IMG/VR virus record: IMGVR_UViG_2711768040_000011
Coordinates: 1-44,606 of that record
Strand: one strand, 5' to 3'
DNA length: 44,606 nucleotides
Origin: a virus
Taxonomy: Duplodnaviria; Heunggongvirae; Uroviricota; Caudoviricetes
Below, piece after piece: positions 25,458-40,487 of the stretch; position 1 is the first letter of the stretch; each line of letters begins with the position of its first letter. The translations under genes and the position numbers were made by a program. Below the pieces are notes generated by a model. It saw only the letters and a program-made list of their open reading frames with translations, was not told the origin of the DNA and did not search any database.

Positions 25458-25549
25458 CAATAAAAAAGCCCCGCACGATGGCGAGGCTGGTTATTCATTC
25501 ATGTCACACACAACAATGGCAACATATACGAATTATTCTGCTCATTTGT

Positions 25550-26375: not shown

Positions 26376-27004
26376 GCTGCCTCCTGTTGACGGGCGCGGC
26401 GCTTCTCCAGCGCGCGGGCTTTACGGGTGAAAATGGATTTGATGCGTTGCAGGTATTGGATGTCGAACCGGCGGACGGAGTTATCGTTGTTTATCGCCTC
26501 AACTTTTTCGGCACCGATGCGCTCGATAAGGCCCTGTTCAAATGCCTTTTGCGCGCCGTCCCGATCCCGGTTGCAATAGACACACTGGGCAGCGGTATTG
26601 TGAAGGTTGAAAGCCAGATGCGCGGCAGCGCCACGGGTGCGATAGTGTCCGCAGTCCATGGTTCCGCCAAACTTCTGCTCTGGCAGCCTGCCGCAGCTGA
26701 TGCACGGCTTACCTGCATCCCTCAGACGGACGTACCGGTTGAATGCCGCCTGCGCTTCCGATCTCCACTGCGGTTTCGTTTTTAGCGCCACCTTTCTCGC
26801 TTTCAGATCCCGGCGTTCCGCGCGCTCTTTCTCTTTGCGCTCCTTGATGCGCTTAGCCGCGGCTTTAACCTTCTCCTTTTCGCGCTCCTCCATCGCGAGG
26901 ATTGCGCCGTGCTCCGGACAGCACCAGCGGATCCGGATGTCGTGGAATTTCGGCACGAAGTATTCACCGCATACTTTGCACTTACGGCGGGATGGTTTAC
27001 GCAT
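26372..27004 (-). CDS. ninG: NinG/Rap recombination protein
   Basis: Start [16 protein letters not shown], multiple Cys pairs and Arg/Lys-rich coiled region as in lambda NinG; ORF open to 27082. Confidence 0.75.
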
Positions 27005-27665
27005 GGGCACCACCTTGAACCTGTACCAGCGTGAGGTTTCCGCAGAACACGGCACCGGTATCGATGTACATCTGGTTGGCATACTTCAGGGGCTGGCGCG
27101 CTGGGGTGTGTCCGAAGATAAACAGATCAGCACCGGATATCGGCGAGACAATGCCGTCCTGAGCGTCGCTAACCCGCTCACGATTCCAGATGACCATTTC
27201 TTTCGGCACTGGCTTATCAAATTCATATTCGTTGTGCGGGTAGTCAGCGTGACAGATGACTATTTTTCGATCGGAGGTAACCAACTCGATGATGAGTGGT
27301 AACTCAGCCGCTTTGTGAACCAGAGCCTTAGCCAGCACTTCTTTGTCATAGTCGAGATTGAAGAACCAACCGCCACCATTTACCAGCCAGTGATTGACGT
27401 TTCCATACTCCGACAGCCCATCAATCATCATCTGCTCATGGTTTCCTCGCACAGCCCGGAGCCAAGGCATAGTAATCAACTCCAGGCACTCGACGTTTTC
27501 CGCGCCGCGGTCAACAAGGTCTCCAACCGAAATCAGCAAATCACACGCAGGGTCGAACGAAACTTTTTCGAGCTCATTCATCAGCAGCGTGTAGCACCCA
27601 TGCAGATCGCCGACGACGAAAATATTGCGCCATTCAGCGCCATTAATGCGTTGATACATGCTCAT
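26997..27665 (-). CDS. ninI: serine/threonine protein phosphatase (lambda NinI-like metallophosphoesterase)
   Basis: GDLHGC, GDLVDRG, GNHE and HADYP metallophosphatase motifs; near-colinear with lambda NinI; start MSMYQ at 27665. Confidence 0.9.
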
Positions 27666-27832
27666 GCAGATTTTCTCCTCGCCGCGAGACGCAGCCATTT
27701 CTGATCCACCAGACGGGCGGTGTAGCCCTTCAGTGTCGGGATGTCGGACGGCTTAACCGCAGGCTTACGCTGGCGGCGCGCAGGAACGCGGAATATTTCG
27801 TTTGTGATGATGCGGGAAAGTGGAGTAGACAT
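27662..27832 (-). CDS. small hypothetical protein (56 aa, NinF-position), not in supplied ORF track
   Basis: Hand-translated [23 protein letters not shown]...; AGGAGG SD; ATGA overlaps with NinB stop and phosphatase start. Confidence 0.45.
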
Positions 27833-28287
27833 CAGGCCTCCTGCTTATCGCGCAGCTGCTGGTATTCACAGCTCTGCGGAATGGTCAGGTGGCAGCCGAT
27901 ATTCATCGCCCAGGCTTCGACCTTGCACAGGAAGATGTACATTTCGCCAGTTTCCAGATCAGACGTATGGCGGAGGGATTGGACGGTGGTGACCTCGCCG
28001 GACACGACGTCTACACGGTCTTTGCTTTCGTAGCCGAGATAGGTGTGCTTCATCGCGTCTTTGACCCACTCAGGCGTAGCGAAGGTCTTGCCGCGGGCGA
28101 TGAGGTACTCGCTGATTTCCGTGTACCACATGTGGCTGAGCGCGTTCTGTGACAGGCTGCGCTTCTCTCGCCACGGCTTAACCTGCAGGCGGAAGCACTG
28201 CCCGGCATCCAGCAATGGCTGAATCTGCTGGCCGATGGCCGCGAAGTTGCCACGATGGAGTTTGATACCGTCTACTGGCAGAGTCAT
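27832..28287 (-). CDS. ninB: NinB recombination protein
   Basis: 151-aa ORF with EKRSLSQNA block resembling lambda NinB; position ahead of nin genes. Confidence 0.7.
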   Translation of the reverse strand: MTLPVDGIKLHRGNFAAIGQQIQPLLDAGQCFRLQVKPWREKRSLSQNALSHMWYTEISEYLIARGKTFATPEWVKDAMKHTYLGYESKDRVDVVSGEVTTVQSLRHTSDLETGEMYIFLCKVEAWAMNIGCHLTIPQSCEYQQLRDKQEA

Positions 28288-28499
28288 ACGGCCTCCTTAA
28301 CGGAAACCGCAGAATGCAGAAAATCGCAGGTGCATTTCTGCATCTGTGACAATGTGAGGAGTTCAGATTGTGGTCGCATTTAAGTCCCCTTAAATGCGCA
28401 GAAGTCACCAATGGGTGTTCAGACCATCAGCAAAGAAAGTATGGACGGTTGATTCAACAAAATCAACTGAAGAGAAAGGCCTCCGGAGAGGCCAATGAG

Positions 28500-28781
28500 T
28501 TAGTCGTCCACGCGTTTAAAGCACTGCGGGCAAACATCATTTCCACCGTGTTCTTCGTATGCGCTTTTAACAGCATCAGTCATCTCTTTAAAGCTTTCGA
28601 ATAGATGACTACCGTTGCTTTTTTTATAAGCTCCGGCTGCGTATTTGTAGATGTCGGACTCTTCTATGCCCTCATCAACATAAGTGCCCTCATGATGAGG
28701 GCACTGCGTTAAAGCGCCAACCCTACCAAGCATCTCCAATGCCCAACACTCTTGTTTCATGCAAAGTTGATCGATACTCAT
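28500..28781 (-). CDS. hypothetical Cys-containing small protein (AT-rich cassette)
   Basis: 93 aa from ATG 28781 with AGGAGG SD; Cys pairs incl. CPQC; AT-rich. Confidence 0.5.
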   Translation of the reverse strand: MSIDQLCMKQECWALEMLGRVGALTQCPHHEGTYVDEGIEESDIYKYAAGAYKKSNGSHLFESFKEMTDAVKSAYEEHGGNDVCPQCFKRVDD

Positions 28782-29047
28782 AACGCCTCCTGTTGGTTTT
28801 ACATCGCCAAATGAATGTACCACCATGCAAGAGGAAATGAAGCAGTTAAATTGTAAAACATGTGTATATATCAATGAGTTAAAATAGTTTGCTATTTTTC
28901 TTACAGCCTTGCTGCGTCGAATGGGTTAGGCATGGCGACCTCTACACGAGCTGAAAATATAAGCCGCTACAGCCAAATCCTGAATTGCTGTTATTGCCAG
29001 CATCCAACCATAAATGCTGTCATTGAAATGCCACGCCAGCGCTGTAA

Positions 29048-29263
29048 TCACGGCTTCACCTCCTTAGCCGTTTTGACGATTGCAGCGAGGCACTTCTTGC
29101 ATGGAACCTGCAATGAACCCTGCTCAATGCTCAACAGTGCATGCTGAGCGTCCTGAAACAACCAGTCAGAAAATTGAGGCTTATGTCCGCACCATGTTTC
29201 TGTTTCATGCTTCGCAAGTTTTACGCCGTCACGATAGTCATATTTGATGATGTGATTACTCAC
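29048..29263 (-). CDS. small hypothetical protein (AT-rich cassette)
   Basis: 71-aa ORF, GTG start with AGGAGG SD, overlaps Lar stop. Confidence 0.45.
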   Translation of the reverse strand: MSNHIIKYDYRDGVKLAKHETETWCGHKPQFSDWLFQDAQHALLSIEQGSLQVPCKKCLAAIVKTAKEVKP

Positions 29264-29559
29264 GGCTGTACCTCCTGCTGCGGTGCTGCAATTAGTTCTA
29301 GCGTGAAGCCGTCTTGCTTAAGACTATCAATGTAAGCCGCAGTTCTCCTGCGCTCGCCAGCACATGCCAGCGTTTCTGGGTCGTAAAACCACACCTTCAT
29401 TCGGCTATTCCATGCAGAAATTGCTTCAGCCTTATTGCGCTTTAATGGCCCATGAGCACCACATTTGCAGTGGACGTAGCGCTTCTTTCCCATAATACTG
29501 AATGAGTAGCCAATACCAAGCGCTGTCGATTCGCAAAATGGGCAGAGTAGTGGAGTCAT
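29260..29559 (-). CDS. lar: Lar-family restriction alleviation protein
   Basis: CPFCES...VHCKCGAHGP...AISAWNSR motif set typical of Lar/RalR family; AGGAGG SD. Confidence 0.7.
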   Translation of the reverse strand: MTPLLCPFCESTALGIGYSFSIMGKKRYVHCKCGAHGPLKRNKAEAISAWNSRMKVWFYDPETLACAGERRRTAAYIDSLKQDGFTLELIAAPQQEVQP

Positions 29560-30260
29560 TTATCCTCCTGCTGAGGTGCTGCTGAAGATGCAAAAATATC
29601 AATCAGCGTATCTTCTCCCATGCTATTGCAATGAGCCTGAAGCCTATTGATGATTGCCTGAAGAGCAAACTTCGGAACCATATTTTCCTTACCTATCTGC
29701 GGGCAGTTTTCGGTACCGAACCAAAATTGCTCGATCTGCAGCAGCAGACCATTTTTGCCTTCAGTTGCACTGAATACGCCGAACGCTTCAATGTCGTATG
29801 CTTTCGCAATCACAGGAGAGTTGCCATCGGCACCCTGAAGCATGGCGGCGCGGCGCTCCCAGTCAGCTATTGCGGCTGAATGTTCCATCGAGTCGTCGCC
29901 AAACTCAGCATGTGCGCACTCGTCTGCCGCATTGGCGGCAGTTTTCGCAATCGTCAAGAGATCTGACAGGAGCGAATCAGATATCGGTGCTGGCGGGGCG
30001 GTGTAAAGCGGCTCACATTCCCAGCCTTGCTTTTGCCAGGATGCCAGGACATTTTTTGAATCTGTCAGAAGGCCGTGATTCTCGTAATAAAGCGATCGCC
30101 ACGCCACAGGATCCGCTTCGAGAGATGCCAGCGCGATACGAAACACCTCTGCAGTCATGCTGCGAGGCGACTGATTGTCATGCGCTGGGTCGGTAAGGAA
30201 GCCAGTAATAAACGCCTTCAATTGCTGATTGTGAATATCGCGTTTGTCGATGTTGCTCAT
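29556..30260 (-). CDS. hypothetical protein
   Basis: ORF start MSNIDKRD (ATG 30260; ORF open to 30275); coupled to neighbours. Confidence 0.5.
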   Translation of the reverse strand: MSNIDKRDIHNQQLKAFITGFLTDPAHDNQSPRSMTAEVFRIALASLEADPVAWRSLYYENHGLLTDSKNVLASWQKQGWECEPLYTAPPAPISDSLLSDLLTIAKTAANAADECAHAEFGDDSMEHSAAIADWERRAAMLQGADGNSPVIAKAYDIEAFGVFSATEGKNGLLLQIEQFWFGTENCPQIGKENMVPKFALQAIINRLQAHCNSMGEDTLIDIFASSAAPQQEDK

Positions 30261-30904
30261 TGGGCGGTCCTCCAACCTTCACATTCAATGTCACTGCAGC
30301 CATCGAAATCGTATGGATTTAGCTGCCAGCTAATCTTTCCGCAGCAAGGGCAATTCCAGCGAACCTTACCGCTGCGTGATTTTTTTCGGTTGTGCTTTTT
30401 CAGCCACTCAGGCATGACAAGCCCTGCCGCCTGAACCATGGTGCGTCGGTTAAACTCATTGATGCTGAACGTGCGGCGCTTAGCCTTGTCAGCTAAAGCA
30501 AAAGGAATCCAGACAATGCCAGGCTCTGCCGTGTTGGCGGATACAAAAACGAATGCCTTACTGAAGTCGTCAGTTGGAAGGCCTCCATGTTGCAACCAGT
30601 ACACATCGTTACCGTTCCAACTGCCTTTTTTGTAGGCCACATAGGACTCACAGCCAGGCTCAATAACACTTTCGGTAGGTATGTACTGACAATCGACATG
30701 CCAGACAGCCATGGAATCAACACTGTCAGCGCAAACCGGCTGATCAATCTCTCTACCCAATTCCCAGCTTCTTTGAGCTTCTTCACGGGTGTACACGTGG
30801 GCGCGGTCTATATTGGAGCTATATCCGTTGCCGTTGTGGCAGTGGAATGACGCGTTACTGCCAACCGTTTCGCGAGTACAAAGCATGTAAAATCTATCGC
30901 TCAT
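30257..30904 (-). CDS. hypothetical protein with C-terminal CPCCG Cys cluster
   Basis: 215-aa ORF, overlapping start/stop with neighbours. Confidence 0.5.
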   Translation of the reverse strand: MSDRFYMLCTRETVGSNASFHCHNGNGYSSNIDRAHVYTREEAQRSWELGREIDQPVCADSVDSMAVWHVDCQYIPTESVIEPGCESYVAYKKGSWNGNDVYWLQHGGLPTDDFSKAFVFVSANTAEPGIVWIPFALADKAKRRTFSINEFNRRTMVQAAGLVMPEWLKKHNRKKSRSGKVRWNCPCCGKISWQLNPYDFDGCSDIECEGWRTAQ

Positions 30905-31335
30905 GACTGCACTCCTTTGCGAAGCTCGTCGGCGAAGTTCTCAGCATCTGCGGCCATGCCAGCAGCCTCTTCAGACATCCTCATGCTTCGGCTACGCAGA
31001 GCCTGCTGTCGTTCTCGCTTATGTGCGGCAAACATCTCCACACCCTGCGCCCGCACTTCAGCCAGGAAAGCGTCGGTGGCTGGGGTTTTGACCTTATTCG
31101 CAGCGAACTCAATTTTTTCTTTCGTGTCTCTGCCGATTTCGCTTGAGCCCAACTTTCCGATGAAGCTAACGATTTGGTCAGGGAACTGCTTCAGCCCCGC
31201 ATTCTCCGCAGCCAGCGCAGCGAATGTGGTTTCAAACACGTTAAGCAGAGTCGTAACTTCTGCCGGTGACATGTGCTCACCACATTCTGCATTCACCCTG
31301 GCGTTTTTAATCAGATCTTCGTATTTGTTGCTCAT
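30901..31335 (-). CDS. hypothetical protein
   Basis: 144 aa from ATG 31335 with GGGGGAGGG SD; the longer ORF to 31692 is a composition-odd extension. Confidence 0.5.
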   Translation of the reverse strand: MSNKYEDLIKNARVNAECGEHMSPAEVTTLLNVFETTFAALAAENAGLKQFPDQIVSFIGKLGSSEIGRDTKEKIEFAANKVKTPATDAFLAEVRAQGVEMFAAHKRERQQALRSRSMRMSEEAAGMAADAENFADELRKGVQS

Positions 31336-31631
31336 ACCCCTACCCTCCCCCAAACCATCAATACTCGCTTCATCGCCGCGCTGTTGCGGCACTCCTGAAA
31401 TATTCCGTTGGTGCAGCTGCGCGCGGTACCATCTTGCTCTTCCGGCGTCGCCAGGCGGTAAGTCACCGTTCGCCAGACCTTGCTCACGCGCACAATCTTC
31501 CTGGCCCGCTCCAGATCGATAGCGTTCTTGGTGATGCAGTTGATGGTCATGACGCACTCTGTGGCCACATCCTTCGCAGTGAAGGTCCGGTGCGTTTCGA
31601 GATAACGCAGAATTGCCTGTTTGCCTTTCAT
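31332..31631 (-). CDS. hypothetical protein
   Basis: 99-aa ORF between helicase and downstream genes, coupled overlaps. Confidence 0.45.
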   Translation of the reverse strand: MKGKQAILRYLETHRTFTAKDVATECVMTINCITKNAIDLERARKIVRVSKVWRTVTYRLATPEEQDGTARSCTNGIFQECRNSAAMKRVLMVWGRVGV

Positions 31632-33067
31632 CAGAAGCCCCCTTTCTTTTTCGGCTGCTGCTCGCGCCCGCGACGTTCTGCGGCGGCGGCATGCTGGTCT
31701 GTGTCGTAAATTGCCCCGTTAATCTGATTGCAATAAACCGTTCCGGTACTGCCGTGGCGGTTGAGTCGCAGGATTAACTCGGTTTCGCCCGGCGGCACGC
31801 TGTCATCGAAAGCACCTTCCCGGTGGATACCAACCCAGTAGTCGCAGTCCTGCTCAATCTGTCCTGTGTCGCGGGAATCACTCGGCAACGGGCGTTTATT
31901 CACTCGCTTCTCCAGTTCGCGGTTGAGCTGAGTCAGCAGCACGACGACGCAGCCAAGCTCTTTGGCCAGGTTCTTCAACCCTTTGGTGATCATCCCGTAG
32001 GCCAGGTCATTACGGTCTGCTTTTTCGGCGGTCATCAGCGTCAGGTAGTCAACCAGAATCATGCCTACGCAGCCTTTCTCGCGCTTAATTCGACGGCATT
32101 CGGTAACGATATGCGCCAGTGACAGGCCAGGAGTGTCGTCGATGTACAGCATGTCGATTTCACTCAGCCGCCCGGCTGTTGCGATCGCCTTCTTAAAGTC
32201 GCCGTCGTAGTCGCCCTGATACTGGTCATCGGCATCATCCGTGGCGGGCATGTAAAAAATGCTCGGGTTAATGCCCGACTTCTGACCAACCAGTTTTTCG
32301 AGGATCTGGTCGCCTGGCATTTCCAGGCTGAACATCAGCGCCGGCTTTTTCTCACGAACCGCGCAGTTGATCGCCATCTGCCCGTACAGGGTTGTTTTGC
32401 CCATTTTTGGCCTTGCGCCAATTACGAACAGAGAGCCTTTAACCAGACCTTTCGGCGCCAGCAGCCGGTCGAGTGACGGGATACCGGTACTCATGCCGCG
32501 CTGTTCGCCTGAGGGGTCAAATCGTTTTTCCAGATCTGCTACCCAGTCATCCATAACCTCGCCGAACGACCGCAACCCACGACGATTTCCGGTTTTTGAA
32601 TGATCTGCGAGCTGGGTGAAGATACCCTGAATGGCCTCATACTTCTGCGTAGCGCTCATACCGTTGCGGGAATACAGCAGCTCAGTAGCTTCGGTCAGAC
32701 GGTTGATACCGTAGCGCTCCATTGCGGCTTCCCGGACTGATTCTGCGTATGCCACGATGTTTGCTGCGCTTGGAGTGTTCTTGGCTATCTCCGCCAGGTA
32801 AGCAAAGCCACCTACCTGCTCCGCGAGCCCTTTTCCTTCAAGCGCGTCGAACAATGTCAGACCATCGACTGGCTTGTTGTCGCGGAACATCTGGCGCATC
32901 TCGGCAAAGATCAGCTGGTGAGGTCGGCTGTAGAACGACTCAGGCTTGAGCATCGCCAGAACCTTCTGGACTCGCTCGCTGTTGTCATCATCCAGCAGCA
33001 GGCCACCGATAACGCTCTGCTCCGCTTCGAGGTTTTGTGGCACAGCCATGAATTCAGCGGTCATCAC
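31631..33067 (-). CDS. replicative DNA helicase (DnaB family)
   Basis: 478-aa ORF with Walker A GARPKMGKTT and DnaB-like helicase blocks; overlaps O-like gene stop. Confidence 0.9.
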   Translation of the reverse strand: MMTAEFMAVPQNLEAEQSVIGGLLLDDDNSERVQKVLAMLKPESFYSRPHQLIFAEMRQMFRDNKPVDGLTLFDALEGKGLAEQVGGFAYLAEIAKNTPSAANIVAYAESVREAAMERYGINRLTEATELLYSRNGMSATQKYEAIQGIFTQLADHSKTGNRRGLRSFGEVMDDWVADLEKRFDPSGEQRGMSTGIPSLDRLLAPKGLVKGSLFVIGARPKMGKTTLYGQMAINCAVREKKPALMFSLEMPGDQILEKLVGQKSGINPSIFYMPATDDADDQYQGDYDGDFKKAIATAGRLSEIDMLYIDDTPGLSLAHIVTECRRIKREKGCVGMILVDYLTLMTAEKADRNDLAYGMITKGLKNLAKELGCVVVLLTQLNRELEKRVNKRPLPSDSRDTGQIEQDCDYWVGIHREGAFDDSVPPGETELILRLNRHGSTGTVYCNQINGAIYDTDQHAAAAERRGREQQPKKKGGF

Positions 33068-33959
33068 GATCCCCCTCGCGCACTTCGATGTAGAGCTTTT
33101 CGGTCAGGAACTTATCGAATTTCATGCGGCGCCAGGTTTTCCCGGATTTCTGGTCTGGTCGGTCTTCAAGCATCCAGCGGCAGTTTTGAGCGATATATCG
33201 CAGATAGCTTCTGAAACCGTCCATATCCATCGGCTTGCCGTCCAGGTTGCGGGCAATCTTGTTAGCCTTACCCCAGAAGGTGCGGATCAGATTGCGTCGC
33301 TCATCAGTGAGGCATCTCCATCCCCGGGCTTCAGGCAGTTCGTCTTTCAGGCATTGCCATACTTCATCGCATGACAAACGGGACTTTTTCTCTTCAGCGG
33401 GGTTCTGGTCATTTGCGACATACTTACTACCTTTAGGTAGTAAGTTATTTAATATATTGTTATCTGTGGACACCGGCTGGACATCGGCTGGACACACATC
33501 CTCCACAGGCATTGTTATTACTGCGTTTGCGCTGGACACTGGCTGGACATCGGCTGGACAAAAATTTGACTGATATTCGTCATATTTGACCACTTTTAGA
33601 ACAGTAAAACGGTTGTTCGATTTGGTGGTGATCATGCCCAGATTCTGGAATTTACGGAGCAGTGATTTAACGCGATCAGCGGTCAAACCCGTTTCCATTG
33701 CCAGCGTGTTACGCCCGGTGATGAACTCGCCGCGCTCGCAGATCACATCGCCAACATCAGTCGATACCAGTGTCTGTTCGTGATTAGCGCGCAGGAGCAG
33801 GTGAACCCATAAATGAGCCGCCTCAGCGTCCTTGTAGAACGGCACATCCATAATTTTACGGTGCAGCAAGGCAAACCCCTTACCGTCATTCGTGCGCGGT
33901 TTCTGGAGCCTTCTGGCCTCTCTGGCTTCGGCTAAATTGGATACGTTACCCACGGCCAC
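33054..33959 (-). CDS. replication initiation protein (lambda O-like) containing ori iterons
   Basis: 301-aa ORF upstream of helicase; DNA iterons inside the gene encode duplicated CPADVQPVS peptide; GTG start with AAGGAGAG SD. Confidence 0.7.
   Translation of the reverse strand: MAVGNVSNLAEAREARRLQKPRTNDGKGFALLHRKIMDVPFYKDAEAAHLWVHLLLRANHEQTLVSTDVGDVICERGEFITGRNTLAMETGLTADRVKSLLRKFQNLGMITTKSNNRFTVLKVVKYDEYQSNFCPADVQPVSSANAVITMPVEDVCPADVQPVSTDNNILNNLLPKGSKYVANDQNPAEEKKSRLSCDEVWQCLKDELPEARGWRCLTDERRNLIRTFWGKANKIARNLDGKPMDMDGFRSYLRYIAQNCRWMLEDRPDQKSGKTWRRMKFDKFLTEKLYIEVREGDRDDR
33465..33565. repeat. replication origin iterons (two clusters of GGCTGGACA-type repeats) followed by AT-rich segment
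   Basis: tggacaccggctggacatcggctggaca ... gctggacactggctggacatcggctggacaaaaatttgactgatattcgtcatatttgacc. Confidence 0.6.
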
Positions 33960-34185
33960 TCTCCTTACGTTTCAATTCTTCCAGGATGGCGCGCATCTTC
34001 TCTGCCACAATCGGGTTAACCGAGCGGATGAAGCGGTCGCGGGCTATGTTTTTATGTACAGCGGTATGGTAATAGCGTGGATTTTTTGCCATTATTCCTC
34101 CTGCAATGAGTGCACACGATTTGCATCTGAAGGCCAGTTCTGTTCGCGCAGACTGGCTTTCGCCATTTTTGATACTTCCCATCAC
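33946..34185 (-). CDS. small hypothetical protein
   Basis: 79-aa ORF between YdaT-like gene and O-like gene. Confidence 0.4.
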   Translation of the reverse strand: MMGSIKNGESQSARTELAFRCKSCALIAGGIMAKNPRYYHTAVHKNIARDRFIRSVNPIVAEKMRAILEELKRKESGRG

Positions 34186-34724
34186 ATAACCCCCAGCATC
34201 GACGTGACCATCGTCATCAGTGGTCCTACCTGCTCCGGCATGAGGCGGAACAGCGAAGCTATACCCTCGCTTACCTCTTTCAGCTTCTGATGCTCTGGGG
34301 CGTCCAAAAGCACGGCCTGTTTAGCTTCAGCACACTCTTTCATCGCAGAAGCGATCAGCGACATCGTGTCGTTCTGCGGCGCCAGGCGGTTGCGGTACTC
34401 CAGCGGCAATACGGACATGATTGCGGGTGTCAGCTGGCGCACGTTCTCGCGGTACTGTTCGGAGTCGAAACGGTTATCCAGGAAGCGGAACAGCTTCTGG
34501 CGCGCACGGCTGATGTCGTCAGGAAAGCTGATGGCGGTCCCGCCCTGCTCCCGGTATTCGTTGATGATCAGTGCCGAAACGACGTCCTGATTGTCCAGCG
34601 CCGAAGACCATGCCCGGACCGCATCGCGGATCTTTTCGTGGTCAGGCGCCGCCTTAGGTTGAGCGCGGTTTATCATCGCTCCCGGGTGTATTCCGGTATT
34701 GTGTTGATACGCAAGTGAATGCAT
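34182..34724 (-). CDS. YdaT-like protein (functional CII-equivalent family of Rac-type prophages)
   Basis: INEYREQGG and LTPAIMSVLPLEYRNRL blocks resemble Rac YdaT; located directly downstream of Cro-like gene. Confidence 0.6.
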   Translation of the reverse strand: MHSLAYQHNTGIHPGAMINRAQPKAAPDHEKIRDAVRAWSSALDNQDVVSALIINEYREQGGTAISFPDDISRARQKLFRFLDNRFDSEQYRENVRQLTPAIMSVLPLEYRNRLAPQNDTMSLIASAMKECAEAKQAVLLDAPEHQKLKEVSEGIASLFRLMPEQVGPLMTMVTSMLGVM

Positions 34725-34741
34725 TGCTTTCCCTTTCGTGG

Positions 34742-34975
34742 TTAGGCCGCAGTATCACGCGGCGATGCGAATACCAGGCTTTCTTTTAGGACCGGAGCCT
34801 GGCGGTGAAAATTCTTCGTGCCTTTCTCGATAGCAGATGCCATTTCTGGAGATGCCCGGCGATTTCCGTAGGCGATCTGGTCCAGGTAACCTGGCGTCGT
34901 GTTAGCCAACTTTGCGAGCTGCGCCCATTCGTCGGTAGTGGCGGCCTTGCGCCAGCGGTGTAGTTCAGTGCTCAT
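34742..34975 (-). CDS. Cro-like / YdaS-like HTH regulator
   Basis: 77-aa ORF with HTH (WAQLAKLANTTPGYLDQIAYG), divergent from cI across operator region. Confidence 0.65.
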   Translation of the reverse strand: MSTELHRWRKAATTDEWAQLAKLANTTPGYLDQIAYGNRRASPEMASAIEKGTKNFHRQAPVLKESLVFASPRDTAA

Positions 34976-35007
34976 TGGTGTCTCCGGGTGAGTCGTTTGA
35001 TTTGGAG

Positions 35008-35073
35008 TTTAGCGTTATGCTAAATACTACGCAAGCATCATTTAGCAATTTGCACATTTATCATTTTGCTAAA
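35008..35073. promoter_or_regulatory. OR-like operator cluster (TTTAGC-N5-GCTAAA palindromes) with divergent promoters
   Basis: TTTAGCgttatGCTAAA at 35008-35024, TTTATCattttGCTAAA at 35057-35073, weaker site at 35041-35057. Confidence 0.5.
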
Positions 35074-35091
35074 AGCAGTAACAATGCAGGT

Positions 35092-35769
35092 ATGGAAAAT
35101 AAAGAAATCAGAAAAGCCAACCTGGAAGCGCTGTACGAGAAGCGTCAGCACGAGTCTGGAATGACCAAAGCGCAGTTTGCCGAGCTCATCGAGACAAGTC
35201 CGGCTGCGCTTAGCCAGCTACTGGGACCAAACCCTCATCGCAATATCGGCGATAAGATGGCTCGCAAAATTGAAACTGCGCTTGATCTGCCTTTTGGCTG
35301 GATGGATGTTTTACACGCCAGTGAAGAACCTTCGAACGTTGCATTTCGAGGACTGAACGAGACAAAAGGAAGTTATCCTGTAATCAGCTGGGTAAGCGCG
35401 GGGCAATGGATGGAAGCTGTAGAACCTTATCACCGAAGAGCGATAGATCGCTGGTATGACACGACTGTTGACTGCTCAGAAGATTCATTCTGGCTGGACG
35501 TTAAAGGGGATTCTATGACCTCCCCGGCTGGACTGAGCATACCCGAGGGAGCAGCGATACTTGTTGATCCTGAAGTCGAGCCGCGCAACGGAAAGCTGGT
35601 TGTCGCGAAGCTAGAAGGCGATAACGAAGCGACCTTTAAGAAGCTTGTAATCGATGCCGGCAGACGCTTCCTAAAGCCCCTTAACCCCGCATATCCAATG
35701 CTAGAAATTAATGGAAACTGCAAAATCATCGGCGTTGTGGTTGATGCCAAAATACTAAACATCCCATAA
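35092..35769 (+). CDS. cI: CI-type prophage repressor (HTH + LexA-like S24 autopeptidase)
   Basis: N-terminal HTH, Ala-Gly cleavage site (SAGQW), GDSM Ser and FKKL Lys motifs; ATG 35092 (ORF open from 34975). Confidence 0.9.
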   Translation: MENKEIRKANLEALYEKRQHESGMTKAQFAELIETSPAALSQLLGPNPHRNIGDKMARKIETALDLPFGWMDVLHASEEPSNVAFRGLNETKGSYPVISWVSAGQWMEAVEPYHRRAIDRWYDTTVDCSEDSFWLDVKGDSMTSPAGLSIPEGAAILVDPEVEPRNGKLVVAKLEGDNEATFKKLVIDAGRRFLKPLNPAYPMLEINGNCKIIGVVVDAKILNIP

Positions 35770-35788
35770 CCTCACGCAAAACCCCTCA

Positions 35789-35813
35789 AGCCCGCCATCG
35801 CGCGGGCTTTTTT
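35789..35813 (+). terminator. rho-independent terminator after cI
   Basis: agcccgc-catcgc-gcgggct hairpin followed by TTTTTT. Confidence 0.6.
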
Positions 35814-35885
35814 ACGTCCCGAATTCCTTCGCTGTAAATTTTTAATCGCTTATTAATCAATACGCTAAATAAAACCATTCAACAA

Positions 35886-35927
35886 TTTAGCATTTTGCTA
35901 TTGCGCATAATTTAGCATCACGCTAAA
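35886..35927. promoter_or_regulatory. OL-like operator cluster (TTTAGC-N5-GCTAAA)
   Basis: Perfect TTTAGCatcacGCTAAA at 35911-35927 and partial TTTAGCattttGCTAtt at 35886-35902. Confidence 0.45.
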
Positions 35928-36124
35928 TTCACCCTATCGAAACGAAACATCGACAGCTGAGCGAAGTTAGCCAGCGGCGAAGTGGAGATTCGGTCAGTCG
36001 AACGGCGCGACAGTAAACCATGCGTCGGACCATAGGCGGGCTCAGGAAGAGCGGCAATTATGGCTAAACGATTTACCAGCAGCTCTTTGCGAGGGGCTGA
36101 CGGTAAACAATCAGAGGGGTGTAT

Positions 36125-36466
36125 ATGTCAGATAAAAAAATGGCGCCACTACTGCTCAATGTAGACGCCAGCGAAGTGCTTACCCAGACCGGGGAGCTTT
36201 TAAAGTTACTTGAACTTCCAGCCAGCTCCCTTCAGGGAATTCCTGAGCATGTCGTCGATCTGTTTTTTGACCGTGTCCGTGGCCTGATTGACAACATCGT
36301 CCTTAGTGATTTCGCGACCACAGTCAGCACAACTGACGCCGGTGAAATTTGTCTCAAAGTCAAAATCATCGGGCTGGTTGAACATCTCACTTCCGCAGTC
36401 AGGGCACACGGTCCGCATGGTTTGCATGAACATATCCTTTCTACTGTTGGGGAGCTTAAAGAGTAA
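36125..36466 (+). CDS. hypothetical protein (first gene of early-left operon); conflicts with antisense ORF
   Basis: 113-aa ORF with GAGGGG SD, same strand as downstream early genes; not Arg-rich. Confidence 0.4.
   Translation: MSDKKMAPLLLNVDASEVLTQTGELLKLLELPASSLQGIPEHVVDLFFDRVRGLIDNIVLSDFATTVSTTDAGEICLKVKIIGLVEHLTSAVRAHGPHGLHEHILSTVGELKE
36206..36433 (-). CDS. alternative antisense small zinc-ribbon protein (two CxxCG pairs)
   Basis: MFMQTMRTVCPDCG...CADCG ORF with AAAGGA SD; fully overlaps 36125-36466 on opposite strand, so only one is likely real. Confidence 0.3.
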   Translation of the reverse strand: MFMQTMRTVCPDCGSEMFNQPDDFDFETNFTGVSCADCGREITKDDVVNQATDTVKKQIDDMLRNSLKGAGWKFK

Positions 36467-36655
36467 GCGATTTCTTGCTGTTGGGGAATAGCGGGAAAGC
36501 GCGCGCCGGGCGCGGATAAATACCCCGGCAATAACTGGAATGTTTTGTAGTGCAGTGAATTGCAGCTGCATCGACGGCAACCGGAAGATAAGCACCCGGC
36601 GCTGCACCACAAAGCATTTCTCCCGCATCAGCGGGTAACGACAGAGGGTAAGGGG

Positions 36656-36952
36656 ATGATCGACGACATCAAGCGCATCGACTCAATGATAAATGCGCTT
36701 CGCAATATGAAACAGGACATCAAGCGTCAGCAGAAACTAAGTGAAATAAACAGTTTAGACCTGTCGCCGAAGCAAGCTCAAAAGCGCAATGCCGATGCTG
36801 ACTGGATTGCGATGGAACAGATTAAGCGTCGGCATGAGCTGCACGCTCTGTCTGTTGAGCTTGGGTTCGCTGAGCGCCGGGAAAGTTATGCTCCATTTGA
36901 ATTAACTGACGGGTGGCACCGATTCGACCACAAGCCGCGCGAACCTCAATAG
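36656..36952 (+). CDS. hypothetical protein
   Basis: 98 aa from ATG 36656 with GGGTAAGGGG SD (ORF open from 36560). Confidence 0.5.
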   Translation: MIDDIKRIDSMINALRNMKQDIKRQQKLSEINSLDLSPKQAQKRNADADWIAMEQIKRRHELHALSVELGFAERRESYAPFELTDGWHRFDHKPREPQ

Positions 36953-37107
36953 CCGCCTAACCAGCGGCTTTTTCATACCTGGAGTCATTTACGAGTGGCT
37001 CAAGTTATGACAACCGGCGGCCATCCACCGCCCATTGAAACACTGAATAAATGCGTTGAAGTCTTGTATTAACCGTTCCGTTCGCCGCGATAAGGCCAAG
37101 AGGATTT

Positions 37108-37317
37108 ATGAGTGATTTGGAGTTGGGCTTAAAGATATACGCATTATGGTTTGTCGGGACGTTTCTGCTCGGCATAGCAATCAACTCGCTGACGAAAAAA
37201 GAACATCGCCAGCCACTTTCAAAACTAGCCATTGACCATGTACGCATGTCTTCCGCAATAACCATTGTGGGCCTGATTGTGTGCGGTATGGGCTGGTTCT
37301 TATTCAAGGTGGTGTGA
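37108..37317 (+). CDS. small membrane protein (two predicted TM helices)
   Basis: 69-aa ORF, AAGAGGA SD, hydrophobic segments. Confidence 0.55.
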   Translation: MSDLELGLKIYALWFVGTFLLGIAINSLTKKEHRQPLSKLAIDHVRMSSAITIVGLIVCGMGWFLFKVV

Positions 37318-37318
37318 G

Positions 37319-37477
37319 ATGACAGTCACCCACAACGGCAAGCAGTACACCGCCAAAAAGCTCAACGATAACGAGTGGCAGCTGACGTCGGTATCTAACC
37401 CGCGTGAAAAGCTGACGATGAACCGCTGGCATATGAAGCTGGCTGGCCTCCTGGAACAGGTTGAGGTGAAGGCATGA
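37319..37477 (+). CDS. small hypothetical protein
   Basis: 52-aa ORF MTVTHNGKQY... starting right after previous stop. Confidence 0.4.
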   Translation: MTVTHNGKQYTAKKLNDNEWQLTSVSNPREKLTMNRWHMKLAGLLEQVEVKA

Positions 37478-37683
37478 TCAACCACTACGGCACCACCCCG
37501 CTCATTCGCCAGTGCGTCACGCCCGGCATGATGGCATTGCATGAAGGCCGCACATATCGCGTCTCAGCAGTCATTCAGGAGCGCAAATGGGTATACCTGC
37601 ACACTGACGCAGAAATAATCCGACTCAGTGACTGCGTGATTGACGTCCTTCTTGACGGTCACGGCAACCCTATCCAGCACTAA
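37474..37683 (+). CDS. small hypothetical protein
   Basis: 69-aa ORF with ATGA overlap to upstream ORF. Confidence 0.45.
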   Translation: MINHYGTTPLIRQCVTPGMMALHEGRTYRVSAVIQERKWVYLHTDAEIIRLSDCVIDVLLDGHGNPIQH

Positions 37684-37753
37684 CCACCCTATTCAACCGT
37701 TCGGCCTGGCATTACGCGGGCGGGATCTGCACATCCAAATTTCAGGAGAAACC

Positions 37754-38725
37754 ATGAGCGAAGTAACGGACTTAACTGTCATCGAAATCAAGCCGGAACA
37801 GGCCCCAGTGCTTTACGTAGCGGGCGGCCTTGACGCGTACCTTGAGCAAATCCGCCAGGCTGTAAACGAAGTGCCGGACCTGTCCACGAAGAAAGGCCGT
37901 GACCGTGTTGCCTCTCTGGCAGCGCAGGTGTCCCGCAGCAAGACGGCAATCGAAAAGCCGGGCCGTGAGTACCTGAAGCGCCTGAAAGAGGCTGTGCGTC
38001 CGGCTGAGGCCGAAATTAAGCGATTCGTTGATGCCTGCGACGAGCTGCGCGATGCGACCCGCCGCCCACTCACCGAATGGGAAGCCGAGCAGGAACGCAT
38101 TAAGGCTGAAGAAGCCATGAACGCGATGCACGCCGAAGCGCTGGAGATGAACATCAGGTTCGATCAGGAACTGGCTGCCAAGTTCGAAGCGGACCACGAA
38201 ATGGCTCTACTGATGAACAAGGATTTTGACCGTGACCGCGAAGAGCAGCGCCGTCTGGCGGAACAGGCTCAGCGTGAACGTGATGAGCGGCTGAAACAGG
38301 AAGCGGCAGAACAAGCCCGCCGCGATGCCGAAGCGAAGCACAAAGCGGAGATTGAAGCCGCAGCGCGCCGTGAAGCCGAAGAGAAAGCCCGCGCTGAACT
38401 GGCGGAGCGCCAGCGCGTCGAAGCGGAACAGCGTGCAGCTCGCGAGAAGCAGGAAGCGGAAGCCCGGGCGGAACGCGAAAAAGCCGCGGCGGTTGAAGCC
38501 GAGCGCCTGAAGGCCAAACAGGCCGAAGATGCCCGCCTGGCCGAAGAGAAGCGCCTCGCCGATGAGCAGGCAAAGCGTGAAGCTGACGTTAAGCACCGCA
38601 AGACGGTCGGCACCAACATCGTTAACGCGCTCACCAGCCAAACCAGCTTAACCCGCGAGCAGGCTATCGAAGTGCTTACCGCTCTGAAAGATGACCTGAT
38701 CCCCTGCGCGAAAATTCATTACTGA
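37754..38725 (+). CDS. coiled-coil protein with long E/A/R/K-rich low-complexity region
   Basis: Start MSEVTDLTVIEIK with AGGAGA SD (ORF open from 37640); about 150 aa of AEQARRDAEAKHKAEIEAAARREAEEKARAE-type repeats. Confidence 0.6.
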   Translation: MSEVTDLTVIEIKPEQAPVLYVAGGLDAYLEQIRQAVNEVPDLSTKKGRDRVASLAAQVSRSKTAIEKPGREYLKRLKEAVRPAEAEIKRFVDACDELRDATRRPLTEWEAEQERIKAEEAMNAMHAEALEMNIRFDQELAAKFEADHEMALLMNKDFDRDREEQRRLAEQAQRERDERLKQEAAEQARRDAEAKHKAEIEAAARREAEEKARAELAERQRVEAEQRAAREKQEAEARAEREKAAAVEAERLKAKQAEDARLAEEKRLADEQAKREADVKHRKTVGTNIVNALTSQTSLTREQAIEVLTALKDDLIPCAKIHY

Positions 38726-38732
38726 GGCAACC

Positions 38733-39017
38733 ATGAACGCATACCTCACTTACGACCGCATCGAAGATCGGCGCTGGGCTGAGCAGCAGATCACCGACGA
38801 GAAAGAGAAGTGGATCGACGACCGGGCGCAGAAAATCATCGACATGATGCCTAAAGAGCCGTCCGGCCTCTTCCACTTCACGATCCCGATAGACTCCAGC
38901 CCATACGAAGGGCTTCGCAGCGATAAAGCTGGCGAGGCCTACAACGATTTCATTTCGGTAGTTGCTTACGCCCAGGCGGAATACGACTGGGAACACCGTA
39001 CCGGCTGCCCGTTTTAA
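38733..39017 (+). CDS. hypothetical protein
   Basis: 94-aa ORF between coiled-coil gene and bet. Confidence 0.5.
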   Translation: MNAYLTYDRIEDRRWAEQQITDEKEKWIDDRAQKIIDMMPKEPSGLFHFTIPIDSSPYEGLRSDKAGEAYNDFISVVAYAQAEYDWEHRTGCPF

Positions 39018-39035
39018 TTTTTGAGGGATTTAACA

Positions 39036-39782
39036 ATGAGTACTGCACTTTCCACCATGGCCGGGAAACTGGCCGCACGCCTCGGCATGGATGCCGGTAC
39101 AGACCTGATGAATACGCTGAAGAATACAGCGTTCAAAGGTGGCAACGTCACGGACGAGCAGTTTACAGCCCTGTTGATCGTCGCCAACCAGTACGGCCTG
39201 AACCCATGGACCAAAGAGATTTACGCATTCCCAGATAAAGGCGGGATTGTCCCGGTCGTCGGCGTTGATGGATGGGCTCGCATTATCAACGAGCATCCTC
39301 AGTTTGACGGCATGGAGTTCTCTTACGACAAGGAGGAAGGCGCGTGTACCTGCAAGATTTACCGCAAAGACCGTAAGCACCCGACCATCGTCACCGAGTA
39401 CATGGGAGAGTGCAAACGCAACACTCAGCCATGGCAGTCCCACCCTACCCGCATGCTTCGCCACAAGACGCTGATCCAGTGCGCGCGTCTGGCCTTTGGT
39501 TTCGCTGGCATCTTCGACCAGGACGAGGCAGAGCGAGTAATTGAAGGAACAACGGCAGAGGTTCATGCGGGCCATGAATCAGATAGCCGCCGCCCGGAAC
39601 TGATCGCAAAAGGTGAGTCCGCCGCGCGCCTTGGAACCGTTAAGTATCAGGAGTTCTGGGTGGCGCTGAGCGCCGAAGAGAAACAGGTGATCGGCGCAGT
39701 TGAGAAACGACGCATGTATGACATGAGTCTTGCTGTCGACAACGCCGAACCTGTCAATGTCGCAGAGACGGAGGCTGAATGA
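39036..39782 (+). CDS. bet: recombination protein Bet (RecT-family single-strand annealing protein)
   Basis: Long colinear identity blocks with lambda Bet as recalled (LLIVANQYGLNPWTKEIYAFPDK, MLRHK, IQCARLAFGFAGI); GAGGGA SD. Confidence 0.9.
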   Translation: MSTALSTMAGKLAARLGMDAGTDLMNTLKNTAFKGGNVTDEQFTALLIVANQYGLNPWTKEIYAFPDKGGIVPVVGVDGWARIINEHPQFDGMEFSYDKEEGACTCKIYRKDRKHPTIVTEYMGECKRNTQPWQSHPTRMLRHKTLIQCARLAFGFAGIFDQDEAERVIEGTTAEVHAGHESDSRRPELIAKGESAARLGTVKYQEFWVALSAEEKQVIGAVEKRRMYDMSLAVDNAEPVNVAETEAE

Positions 39783-40396
39783 TAGAGCAACGCACCCCTG
39801 AATGGTTTGCTGCGCGCTGCGGCAAGGTCACAGCCAGTCGCCTGGCTGATGTCATGGCCCGGACTAAGTCGGGCTACTCCACCAGCCGCCAGAACTACAT
39901 GGCCGAGCTGATTTGCCAACGGCTGACCGGGAAGCTGGAGGAAGGGTTTTCGAATGCCGCGATGATGCGCGGCACTGAACTTGAGCCAGTGGCACGCGAA
40001 ATGTACGCGCTGAATGAGTTCAATGCGGAAATCACTGAAGTTGGACTCATCGATCACCCAACCATACCCGGATTCGCAGCCAGCCCGGACGGACTTGTAA
40101 ACGACGACGGGCTTATCGAAATCAAATGCCCCAATACCTGGACCCATATCGAAACGCTGAAAACCGGTGAACCAAAGCGCCAGTACATGCTGCAAATGCA
40201 TGCACAGATGATGTGCACCGGGCGGAAATGGTGTGATTTCGTTAGTTTCGATGATCGCCTGCCGCCTGACCTCGCCTATTTCAAGAAGCGTATTCATTTC
40301 GATGAAGAGCTGGCGCGCGAAATCGAGTCTGAGGTTAAGACCTTCCTTGCAGATCTGGAATCTGAAATTCAGAAAATCACAGAGCGTGCAGCATGA
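39779..40396 (+). CDS. YqaJ-type viral recombinase exonuclease (Exo partner of Bet)
   Basis: 205-aa ORF with PD-(D/E)xK-like blocks (ASPDG...IEIKC), ATGA overlap with bet stop. Confidence 0.8.
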   Translation: MIEQRTPEWFAARCGKVTASRLADVMARTKSGYSTSRQNYMAELICQRLTGKLEEGFSNAAMMRGTELEPVAREMYALNEFNAEITEVGLIDHPTIPGFAASPDGLVNDDGLIEIKCPNTWTHIETLKTGEPKRQYMLQMHAQMMCTGRKWCDFVSFDDRLPPDLAYFKKRIHFDEELAREIESEVKTFLADLESEIQKITERAA

Positions 40397-40487
40397 AGGC
40401 ACTCATCACCCGGGAGCTTAAAGCTCCTTTTTTATTGCTGGCGTTCACCTTCAACCGAATTAACCGACAGTTCCGGGAGCATTGACC

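What the first reader, a model, noticed from the sequence alone, without database searches (positions are those of the whole stretch)
33421..33600. Replication origin embedded in the O-like gene: iteron clusters, AT-rich tract and a nearby perfect palindrome
Two clusters of GGCTGGACA-type iterons (33465-33500 and 33531-33565) are followed by an AT-rich segment (aaaaatttgactgatattcgtcatatttgacc). A 25-bp perfect palindrome TACTTACTACCtttAGGTAGTAAGT lies just upstream (33421-33447). The iterons are in-frame and encode a duplicated CPADVQPVS peptide in the initiator, the same ori-within-O logic as lambda.
Basis: partly seen in the sequence, partly recalled or inferred. Interest (0 to 1): 0.45.

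Follow-up and report, generated by a model that had tools for sequence, protein, structure and literature searches.

The report
Phage replication origin inside initiator gene
This is very probably the phage's replication origin (six 11-bp protein-binding repeats, an easily melted AT-rich stretch and a small palindrome) written inside the gene for its own initiator protein; the arrangement is already known from phages HK022, HK620, Sf6 and L, so this is an ordinary new example with its own repeat word.

Summary
Six TGTCCA-core units lie at an 11-bp period in two triplets 66 bp apart (33462-33494 and 33528-33560). Next to them are the least stable duplex of the whole 44.6-kb window (33424-33463) and an 11+2+11 palindrome (33422-33445). 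All of this lies inside a minus-strand initiator gene (33054-33959) that is followed by a DnaB-type helicase gene.

The constraint acts on the DNA, not the peptide. The three units of a triplet fall in three reading frames. Among 59 close relatives, third codon positions vary at 1/16 sites in the cores, against 122/242 in the flanks.

In 178 of 179 unique family genes the layout is the same. The repeat word follows residues 56-125 of the protein (AMI 0.87). The palindrome keeps perfect Watson-Crick symmetry through 18 sequence versions.

The class is already described. Sf6's record annotates a putative rep_origin at this position, and the phage L paper reports six 11-bp TGTCCAACGGA repeats as the likely origin.

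The protein is not a lambda O (Pfam Phage_rep_O) relative. The origin resembles lambda's in layout only.

Verdict: interpretation supported, new member of a known kind, low interest.

The parts
33054..33959 (-). Initiator gene (301 aa; 'O-like', HK022 O / phage L gp18 type) that contains the origin
   Evidence: ORF. phrog_345 'replication initiation O-like', E 1.9e-68. 51% identical to HK022 O and 97% to the CobraSix homolog. 1674 homologs, named 'DNA replication protein'.
33585..33794 (-). Codes residues 56-125: the helix-turn-helix plus wing of the N-terminal domain, inferred to set repeat specificity
   Evidence: The repeat word follows clusters of this segment (AMI 0.87) and not N1 (0.50) or the C-domain (0.21). 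The AF2 model gives helix-helix-beta-hairpin at pLDDT 67-85. All fold matches are winged-helix domains, but they are weak, E >= 0.011.
33566..33597 (-).
   Evidence: GC 0.31; ranks in the least stable 0.7-0.8% of windows. Nearly identical to HK022. Third-position polymorphism 2/11, not significantly low.
33528..33560 (-). Repeat triplet A: TGTCCAGCCGA, TGTCCAGCCAG, TGTCCAGCGCA (gene orientation)
   Evidence: The units start in frames 1, 3, 2. Core positions 1-8 are almost invariant in 59 relatives.
33495..33527 (-). 33-bp spacer between the triplets; variable in sequence, fixed in length
   Evidence: 17/33 sites are polymorphic among close relatives. The triplet-to-triplet distance is 66 nt in 178/179 unique family genes.
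33462..33494 (-). Repeat triplet B: TGTCCAGCCGA, TGTCCAGCCGG, TGTCCAcagat (the last unit is truncated after CCA in every lineage)
33446..33464 (-). AT-rich tract (GATAACAATATATTAAATA in gene orientation); the most likely DNA-unwinding element
   Evidence: GC of 33446-33466 is 0.14. The 20-, 30- and 40-bp windows covering it are the least stable in the whole 44.6 kb. 1/19 sites are polymorphic. It holds the same position as lambda's AT-rich region.
33422..33445 (.). Palindrome ACTTACTACCT-aa-AGGTAGTAAGT (11-nt arms, 2-nt centre)
   Evidence: As ssDNA the hairpin is -8 kcal/mol, z = -3.07. Across 18 distinct versions in the family, 8 of 11 pairs change on both sides, there are no G-T pairs, and 92% of cells are paired against 37-50% in slid controls. 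Only the centre varies among close relatives.
33060..33380 (-). Codes the C-terminal domain (residues ~194-300), inferred to recruit the helicase
   Evidence: AF2 pLDDT 78-89. phrog_24933. The only similarity to P22 gp18 is here, E 8e-4. This domain reassorts independently of the repeats.
31631..33067 (-). Phage DnaB-family replicative helicase gene, overlapping the end of the initiator gene
   Evidence: Pfam DnaB and DnaB_C. TIGR03600 phage_DnaB, 549 bits, above its cutoff.

Best explanation
Window 33422-33560 is the theta-replication origin of this lambdoid phage or prophage. It is embedded in the part of the initiator gene that codes a flexible linker between the protein's two domains.

Proposed mechanism:
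- The N-terminal winged-helix domain of the initiator (specificity residues about 56-125) binds the six 11-bp direct repeats (core TGTCCAGC[C]). The repeats form two triplets, all in one orientation and in helical register.
- The resulting nucleoprotein complex strains and opens the adjacent, extremely AT-rich tract (33446-33464).
- The C-terminal domain brings in the phage's own DnaB-type helicase, encoded by the next gene.
- The palindrome just beyond the AT tract (33422-33445) is part of the origin as a DNA-level dyad or cruciform element. Its role is not known.

Shown here: the anatomy; DNA-level selection; family-wide conservation; co-variation of repeat word with protein segment; and the domain and linker layout.

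Inferred: binding, unwinding, helicase loading, and which AT tract melts.
For: 1. The repeats are not chance. All four exact GGCTGGACA copies in 44.6 kb lie within 86 bp, at a strict 11-bp period with a 66-bp offset.

2. The constraint is on DNA. The units of each triplet fall in frames 1, 3, 2. Among 59 distinct relatives, polymorphic sites are 4/48 in cores, 1/19 in the AT tract and 1/24 in the palindrome, against 11/18 in the inter-core gaps and 17/33 in the spacer. Third codon positions in cores + AT tract + palindrome vary at 3/30 sites against 122/242 in flanking coding sequence, Fisher p = 2e-5.

3. The architecture is a family trait. 178 of 179 unique genes have 3+3 units with exactly 66 nt between triplets, then an AT tract, then a palindrome.

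4. Specificity co-varies. Six repeat words (TGTCCAGCC, GTGCCAACA, TTACCAGCA, TTACCAACA, TGTCCAACG, TTCCCAACA) follow clusters of residues 56-125 (AMI 0.87), not N1 (0.50) or the C-domain (0.21). HK022 and Sf6 have 100% identical C-domains but different repeats. The natural hybrid P0016 carries the HK022-type segment together with HK022-type repeats.

5. The AT tract is the least stable duplex of the whole window. It sits in the same position as lambda's: repeats, then AT-rich, then palindrome, in the direction of transcription.

6. The palindrome is conserved as a structure through 18 sequence versions, with 8 of 11 pairs compensated.

7. The AF2 model has folded N and C domains. Residues 131-193, exactly the part encoded by the origin, have pLDDT below 50.

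8. [quoted passage not shown]
Against: - No experiment on any member of this 11-bp-repeat class turned up in the searched literature. The public annotations say 'putative' or 'likely'.
- The protein has no detectable homology to lambda O: BLASTP E 2.4, no PF04492 match, hhalign probability 0.5%. Transfer of mechanism from lambda is therefore by analogy.
- Natural variants with only one triplet exist on 20 Salmonella contigs. Either six units are not all required, or those prophages are replication-defective.
- A second AT-rich tract flanks the repeats on the other side, so the site of melting is not settled.
- The fold matches for the N-domain are individually non-significant.
Confidence: 0.82

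Rival explanations
1. The repeats are only a protein-level duplication. A duplicated CPADVQPVS linker peptide would be what is selected, and the DNA would have no function of its own.
For: The peptide is present twice. The two 33-bp blocks are in frame with each other because 66 nt equals 22 codons.
Against: - The repeat unit is 11 bp and is read in three different frames, so the unit cannot be a peptide repeat.
- Third codon positions in the cores are nearly frozen (1/16 against 122/242, p = 4e-4).
- The peptide between the triplets varies freely, with at least six versions among close relatives.
- The encoded segment is predicted to be disordered.
- Lineages with quite different peptides (VPADYQQIT, CPTVVQRLS) keep the same 11-bp and 66-bp DNA geometry.
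Confidence: 0.03
2. The repeats are initiator-binding sites used mainly for control and not for initiation: autoregulation, titration or handcuffing, or replication-type incompatibility. The true start site would lie elsewhere.
For: - Repeat word and protein segment co-vary, which shows binding but not initiation.
- In lambda, plasmid-borne iterons inhibit phages of the same replication type (PMC3349717).
- Single-triplet variants exist.
Against: - The repeats are directly joined to the least stable duplex of the window and to a conserved palindrome, which is the full lambda-type origin layout.
- No other repeat cluster for this word exists in the window.
- Control and initiation roles are not exclusive.
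Confidence: 0.08
3. Same origin, but melting starts in the reader's AT tract on the promoter-proximal side (33566-33597), not in the tract between the repeats and the palindrome.
For: This tract is in the least stable 0.7-0.8% of windows. It is AT-rich in all family members and nearly identical between this window and HK022.
Against: - It is clearly more stable than the distal tract (-21.2 against -17.4 kcal/mol per 20 bp; GC 0.31 against 0.14).
- It codes a conserved protein motif (KYDEYQSNF), which by itself explains its conservation. Its third positions are not significantly constrained (2/11, p = 0.06).
- In lambda the AT-rich region lies on the promoter-distal side, next to the palindrome.
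Confidence: 0.2
4. The palindrome works as an RNA hairpin or intrinsic terminator for transcription running antisense to the initiator gene. It would not be a DNA element of the origin.
For: On the + strand the stem followed by TATTTAATAT matches a terminator pattern. In every lineage the stem is followed by the T-rich complement of the AT tract in that orientation.
Against: - The scan found 2 such sites where shuffles give 2.9.
- No promoter-like site was found on either strand in 32900-35100.
- None of 198 pair cells is a G-T/G-U pair, which an RNA stem would tolerate.
- The stems are AT-rich, with 4 G-C pairs.
- Lambda has a palindrome at the equivalent place in its origin.
Confidence: 0.05

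Closest known systems
Putative origins in the initiator genes of phages HK022, HK620, Sf6, ST64T and L (HK022 O / L gp18 type)
   Same: - The protein is homologous over its full length (42-55% identity).
- The origin has the same anatomy at the same position: 3+3 units of 11 bp, 66 bp between triplets, an AT tract, then a palindrome.
- A DnaB-type helicase gene follows.
- Sf6 annotates a rep_origin there. The phage L paper describes six 11-bp repeats as the likely origin.
   Different: - The repeat word differs: TGTCCAGCC here, TGTCCAACG in L, ST64T and Sf6, TTACCAGCA in HK022.
- Residues 56-125 are correspondingly diverged (44-53% identity).
- The palindrome sequence differs.
- The origin is not annotated in the nearest phages, CobraSix and Chronis.
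Lambda ori within gene O (also P22 ori within gene 18)
   Same: - The origin lies in the middle of the initiator gene.
- The order along the direction of transcription is the same: repeats, AT-rich tract, palindrome.
- The initiator has an N-terminal DNA-binding part and a C-terminal part that deals with the helicase step. P22 gp18 shares weak similarity in the last ~50 residues and also pairs with a DnaB-type helicase.
   Different: - Lambda O and P22 gp18 are Pfam Phage_rep_O. This protein is not, and no homology is detectable.
- Lambda and P22 have four ~18-20-bp repeats with internal dyad symmetry at 20-24-bp spacing. Here there are six 11-bp asymmetric direct repeats in two triplets.
- Lambda uses the P loader for host DnaB. 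Here the phage supplies its own helicase.
Iteron origins of theta plasmids (winged-helix Rep proteins) and origin-in-gene 'replisome organizers' of Gram-positive phages such as SPP1 gene 38 (comparison from general knowledge)
   Same: - Direct, same-orientation repeats are bound by a winged-helix initiator next to an AT-rich unwinding element.
- The N-domain matches PHROG families labelled DnaD-like helicase loader (E 7e-23 and 7e-15) and staphylococcal-phage 'DnaD domain' or 'replisome organizer' proteins.
   Different: - No Pfam Rep or DnaD family is matched.
- The unit is much shorter (11 bp) than typical plasmid iterons.
- The origin is inside coding sequence.
- The similarity covers only the N-terminal ~140 residues.

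Membership tests
HK022 O / phage L gp18-type initiator with internal origin | Full-length homology of the initiator protein to HK022 O, Sf6 gp43 and ST64T/L gp18 | tested here: met
   phrog_345 E 1.9e-68 over residues 5-301. 51% identity to HK022 O over the full length. tblastn gives 42-55% identity at 91-100% coverage to Sf6, ST64T and PA-1.
HK022 O / phage L gp18-type initiator with internal origin | Six imprecise 11-bp direct repeats in the middle of the gene, arranged 3+3 | tested here: met
   The 66-nt triplet distance is shared with 178 of 179 unique family genes. The published description for phage L is in PMC8022706.
HK022 O / phage L gp18-type initiator with internal origin | AT-rich tract and palindrome immediately after the second triplet | tested here: met
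HK022 O / phage L gp18-type initiator with internal origin | DnaB-family helicase gene immediately downstream | tested here: met
   Pfam DnaB and DnaB_C and TIGR03600. The same arrangement is seen in HK022, Sf6, ST64T, PA-1 and others.
HK022 O / phage L gp18-type initiator with internal origin | The fragment supports initiator-dependent replication | not testable with these tools
   This needs a plasmid replication assay. No such experiment for this class was found in the literature searched.
Lambda O family (Pfam PF04492 Phage_rep_O) | N-terminal domain matches Phage_rep_O | tested here: not met
   No PF04492 hit for the window protein, HK022 O or Sf6 gp43. Lambda O and P22 gp18 hit it at E 6e-36 and 7e-38. 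BLASTP against lambda O gives E 2.4. hhalign probability is 0.5%.
Lambda O family (Pfam PF04492 Phage_rep_O) | Four ~18-20-bp iterons with internal dyad symmetry | tested here: not met
   Lambda and P22 each have 4 copies of a 20-nt unit at spacing 20, 24, 23, and the copies pair as inverted repeats. Here there are six 11-bp units, all in the same orientation, with no internal dyad.
Lambda O family (Pfam PF04492 Phage_rep_O) | Origin inside the initiator gene, with the order repeats, AT-rich tract, palindrome | tested here: met
   (lambda) compared (window).
DnaD-like / replisome-organizer N-terminal domain | Sequence or fold match of the N-terminal domain | tested here: inconclusive
   PHROG families labelled DnaD-like helicase loader match residues 22-168 (E 7e-23, 7e-15, 1e-8). 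No Pfam DnaD family matches. There is no PDB sequence hit. The fold hits are generic winged-helix regulators at E >= 0.011.

The most novel reading that the evidence does not exclude
The palindrome may be a separate functional module of the origin and not a passive neighbour. It would be a DNA dyad or cruciform element, for example a helicase-loading or priming landmark, or a structure that host defences can sense.

Its sequence is free to change as long as Watson-Crick symmetry is kept. It is inherited with the C-terminal domain and helicase half of the replication module, while the repeats are inherited with the DNA-binding half. The two halves are joined by recombination in the conserved AT tract.
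Probability: 0.3. Interest if true: 0.45.

Novelty: new member of a known kind. Interest (0 to 1): 0.2.

Why it matters
Practical value: this locates the probable origin in a common family of Klebsiella, Enterobacter and Salmonella prophages. IMG/VR holds 275 relatives and the protein collection 1674. The nearest sequenced phages, CobraSix and Chronis, carry no origin annotation.

It also defines a repeat word, TGTCCAGCC, that should set replication-type specificity and incompatibility.

The comparative data give a clean natural experiment. There are six repeat words paired with six versions of one protein segment, natural hybrids, and single-triplet deletions. These could be used to work out how a winged-helix initiator reads 11-bp direct repeats.

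Phage origins are also relevant as triggers of defence systems. Lamassu LmuB is enriched at the lambda origin during infection (PMC12663957).

None of this changes current understanding. It extends a known pattern.

Tried and rejected
- Lambda O membership: rejected. There is no PF04492 hit, BLASTP gives E 2.4, and hhalign gives 0.5%.
- Peptide-level repeat: rejected because the units fall in three frames and third positions are frozen.
- Extra repeat clusters elsewhere in the window, such as regulatory copies near the immunity region: none. One-mismatch matches number 16 against 10.3 +/- 3 expected, and they are scattered.
- Promoters inside or near the origin: none found in 32900-35100.
- Known RNA families: only a tRNA in the whole window.
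- Solved-structure relatives by sequence: none.
- Fold search: only generic winged-helix matches, none with E <= 0.001, so no specific structural family can be claimed.
- Literature search for experiments on HK022, HK620 or L-type origins, or on CobraSix: nothing relevant. A search for a function of the lambda palindrome also found nothing usable.
- DnaA-box or IHF-site readings of the AT tracts were considered by eye only. They were not pursued because such degenerate motifs would not be informative here.

Full report
WHAT IS THERE

The finding lies inside a 301-codon gene on the minus strand, 33054-33959. The gene's end overlaps a phage DnaB-family helicase gene, 31631-33067 (Pfam DnaB and DnaB_C; TIGR03600 above its cutoff).

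Upstream, in transcription order, are a divergent S24 repressor gene, a cro-like gene, a cII-position gene and an orf48-like gene. This is the early-right operon of a lambdoid phage. The nearest sequenced phages are Enterobacter phage CobraSix (97% over the gene) and Klebsiella phage Chronis (92.5%). Neither record annotates an origin.

OBSERVATION CHECK

The repeats are real. Six TGGACA-core units start at 33467, 33478, 33489 and 33533, 33544, 33555 on the + strand. They have an 11-bp period, and the two triplets are 66 bp apart. Tandem Repeats Finder independently reports both arrays with period 11. All four exact GGCTGGACA copies in the 44.6-kb window fall within 33475-33560.

The palindrome has 11-nt arms around a 2-nt centre, 33422-33445.

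The peptide CPADVQPVS does occur twice.

THE DNA IS UNDER SELECTION, NOT THE PEPTIDE

The six units begin in reading frames 1, 3, 2, 1, 3, 2, so the 11-bp unit cannot be a peptide repeat.

I compared 59 distinct close relatives from IMG/VR (94-100% protein identity, no indels). The fractions of polymorphic sites were:
- repeat cores: 4/48
- AT tract: 1/19
- palindrome: 1/24, and that one site is in the centre
- 3-nt gaps between cores: 11/18
- inter-triplet spacer: 17/33

Third codon positions vary at 1/16 sites in the cores, against 122/242 in the flanking coding sequence (Fisher p = 4e-4). For cores, AT tract and palindrome together the figure is 3/30 (p = 2e-5). The peptide encoded by the spacer changes freely.

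THE LAYOUT IS A FAMILY TRAIT

HK022 O, Sf6 gp43, ST64T gp18, Pantoea PA-1, Cronobacter ENT47670 and Klebsiella ST101-KPC2phi6.1 all have the same anatomy at the same place, with different repeat words and different palindromes.

In an automated survey of 179 unique genes from three IMG/VR scans plus the phage records, 178 have exactly 66 nt between the triplets. The one exception, L132, looks like a deletion.

Six repeat words occur: TGTCCAGCC (this window, 91 genes), GTGCCAACA, TTACCAGCA, TTACCAACA, TGTCCAACG and TTCCCAACA. The sixth unit is truncated after CCA in every lineage.

The repeat word follows clusters of residues 56-125 of the protein (adjusted mutual information 0.87). It follows the first 55 residues much less (0.50) and the C-terminal domain hardly at all (0.21).

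Three comparisons illustrate this:
- HK022 and Sf6 have 100% identical C-domains, but only 44% identity in residues 56-125, and different repeats.
- This window and PA-1 share 72% in the C-domain, but 47% in residues 56-125, and different repeats.
- A natural Klebsiella hybrid (P0016) combines HK022-type residues 56-125 and HK022-type repeat peptides with this window's palindrome peptide and C-domain.

The AlphaFold model has a folded N-domain (residues ~36-130, with helix-helix-beta-hairpin order) and a folded C-domain (~194-300). Residues 131-193 have pLDDT below 50 and no secondary structure. That is exactly the part encoded by the repeats, AT tract and palindrome. Fold matches to the model are all winged-helix DNA-binding domains, but none is individually significant; the best E is 0.011.

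THE UNWINDING TRACT

A nearest-neighbour stability scan puts the least stable 20-, 30- and 40-bp windows of the entire 44.6 kb at 33424-33463, between triplet B and the palindrome. GC of 33446-33466 is 0.14.

It codes the conserved KYDEYQSNF motif, which is enough to explain its conservation.

In lambda the order along O is also iterons, AT-rich region, palindrome (arms at lambda 39162-39173 and 39178-39189). I therefore place the main unwinding element on the promoter-distal side. The other side remains a live rival at about 0.2.

THE PALINDROME

Eighteen distinct versions align without gaps at the same position. Of 11 pairs:
- 8 show changes on both sides;
- none shows a one-sided (G-T) change;
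- 92.4% of cells are paired, against 37-50% when the partner is slid by 1-3 columns;
- no shuffle out of 500 reaches the observed pairing or covariation score.

This is Watson-Crick dyad symmetry maintained at the DNA level. An RNA stem would be expected to tolerate G-U pairs.

Palindrome type maps to C-domain type and is shuffled relative to the repeats. Window-type repeats occur with ENT47670-type palindromes, and HK022-type repeats occur with the window-type palindrome. A recurrent recombination joint therefore lies in the conserved AT tract. Physical linkage to the C-domain is enough to explain the association, so a functional link to the helicase half is only a possibility.

On the + strand the stem plus its T-rich tail looks like a terminator. 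However, the scan is not enriched over shuffles and found no promoter.

COMPARISON WITH WHAT IS KNOWN

The class has already been described. The Sf6 record carries a rep_origin feature inside gene 43, labelled 'putative; repeat region reminiscent of the phage lambda origin; similar to phage HK620'. [quoted passage not shown] It adds that L gp18 is only 15% identical to lambda O (PMC8022706).

The membership tests agree. The window protein belongs to the HK022 O / L gp18 family. It is not a Phage_rep_O protein: lambda O and P22 gp18 match PF04492 at E 6e-36 and 7e-38, while the window protein, HK022 O and Sf6 gp43 do not. BLASTP against lambda O gives E 2.4, and the profile-profile probability is 0.5%. 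Similarity to P22 gp18 is limited to the last ~50 residues (E 8e-4). That fits a shared need to engage a DnaB-type helicase.

Lambda and P22 have four ~20-bp dyad-symmetric iterons. Here the units are 11-bp asymmetric direct repeats. The origin therefore works like lambda's in layout and logic but uses a different initiator family and a different binding geometry. That geometry is closer to monomers bound head to tail, as on plasmid iterons; this last comparison rests on general knowledge.

LIMITS

I found no experimental test of any origin in this class. Binding, melting and helicase loading are all inferred.

Natural variants lacking exactly one triplet plus the spacer (277-aa proteins) occur on 20 Salmonella contigs and in Klebsiella. 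They sit in otherwise normal immunity and replication modules. Whether they replicate is unknown. For lambda, the two iterons nearest the AT-rich region were reported to suffice in vitro (as cited in PMC7466680).

VERDICT

This is a new member, with its own repeat word, of a known kind of origin. Interest is low. The best leads for follow-up are the repeat/protein co-variation series and the structure-conserved palindrome.

Noticed in passing
L252:4395-4470 (Salmonella contig ABFUGX010000039.1); proteins P0004, P0008: Natural 277-aa variants of the initiator have lost exactly 22 codons (66 nt), which is one repeat triplet plus the spacer. Three units, the AT tract and the palindrome remain. 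They were seen on 20 Salmonella contigs and in Klebsiella, within otherwise normal immunity and replication modules. The likely cause is recombination between the two 33-bp direct repeats.
   Followed up: partly
P0016, P0038; L141, L144, L205, L207 (last repeat unit to palindrome): Natural hybrids exchange the 'residues 56-125 plus repeats' half and the 'palindrome plus C-domain' half of the gene. The joint falls in the conserved AT tract.
   Followed up: yes
window 33946-34185 (-): The small orf48/hkaW-like gene between the cII-position gene and the initiator gene matches phrog_1913, which is labelled 'tail protein'. Several RefSeq records, including P22 orf48, carry the same label. Its position in the early-right operon makes this look like a propagated misannotation.
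   Followed up: no
window 34182-34724 (-): The gene in the cII position (180 aa) matches both Pfam YdaT_toxin (E 5e-28) and the PHROG 'CII-like transcriptional activator' family (E 1e-60). These are two conflicting labels for one family.
   Followed up: no
window 33422-33455 (+): Read on the + strand, antisense to the initiator gene, the palindrome followed by TATTTAATAT scores as an intrinsic-terminator-like site. The same geometry exists in all family members, because the AT tract always adjoins the palindrome.
   Followed up: partly
window 33456-33463 and 33511-33518: ATTGTTAT (ATAACAAT in gene orientation) occurs after each triplet, 55 bp apart. This may be a trace of an ancestral duplication of a 'triplet plus AT tract' block, or it may be chance.
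   Followed up: no
window 33433-33434 (centre of the palindrome): This window has the rare centre variant AAAG (3 of 179 unique genes), which extends the arms to 11 bp. Most relatives have AACG, giving 10-bp arms and a 4-nt centre. The variant changes the encoded residue (K instead of N).
   Followed up: partly
window 25382-25457 (-): A tRNA-Thr (anticodon TGT) gene is the only Rfam or ARAGORN hit in the window.
   Followed up: no
window 25000-44606: The right part of the window is a mosaic. Only 27% is covered by CobraSix (93.5% identity), 23% by phi80 and 15% by HK639. The replication module is therefore shared more widely than the rest of the genome.
   Followed up: no
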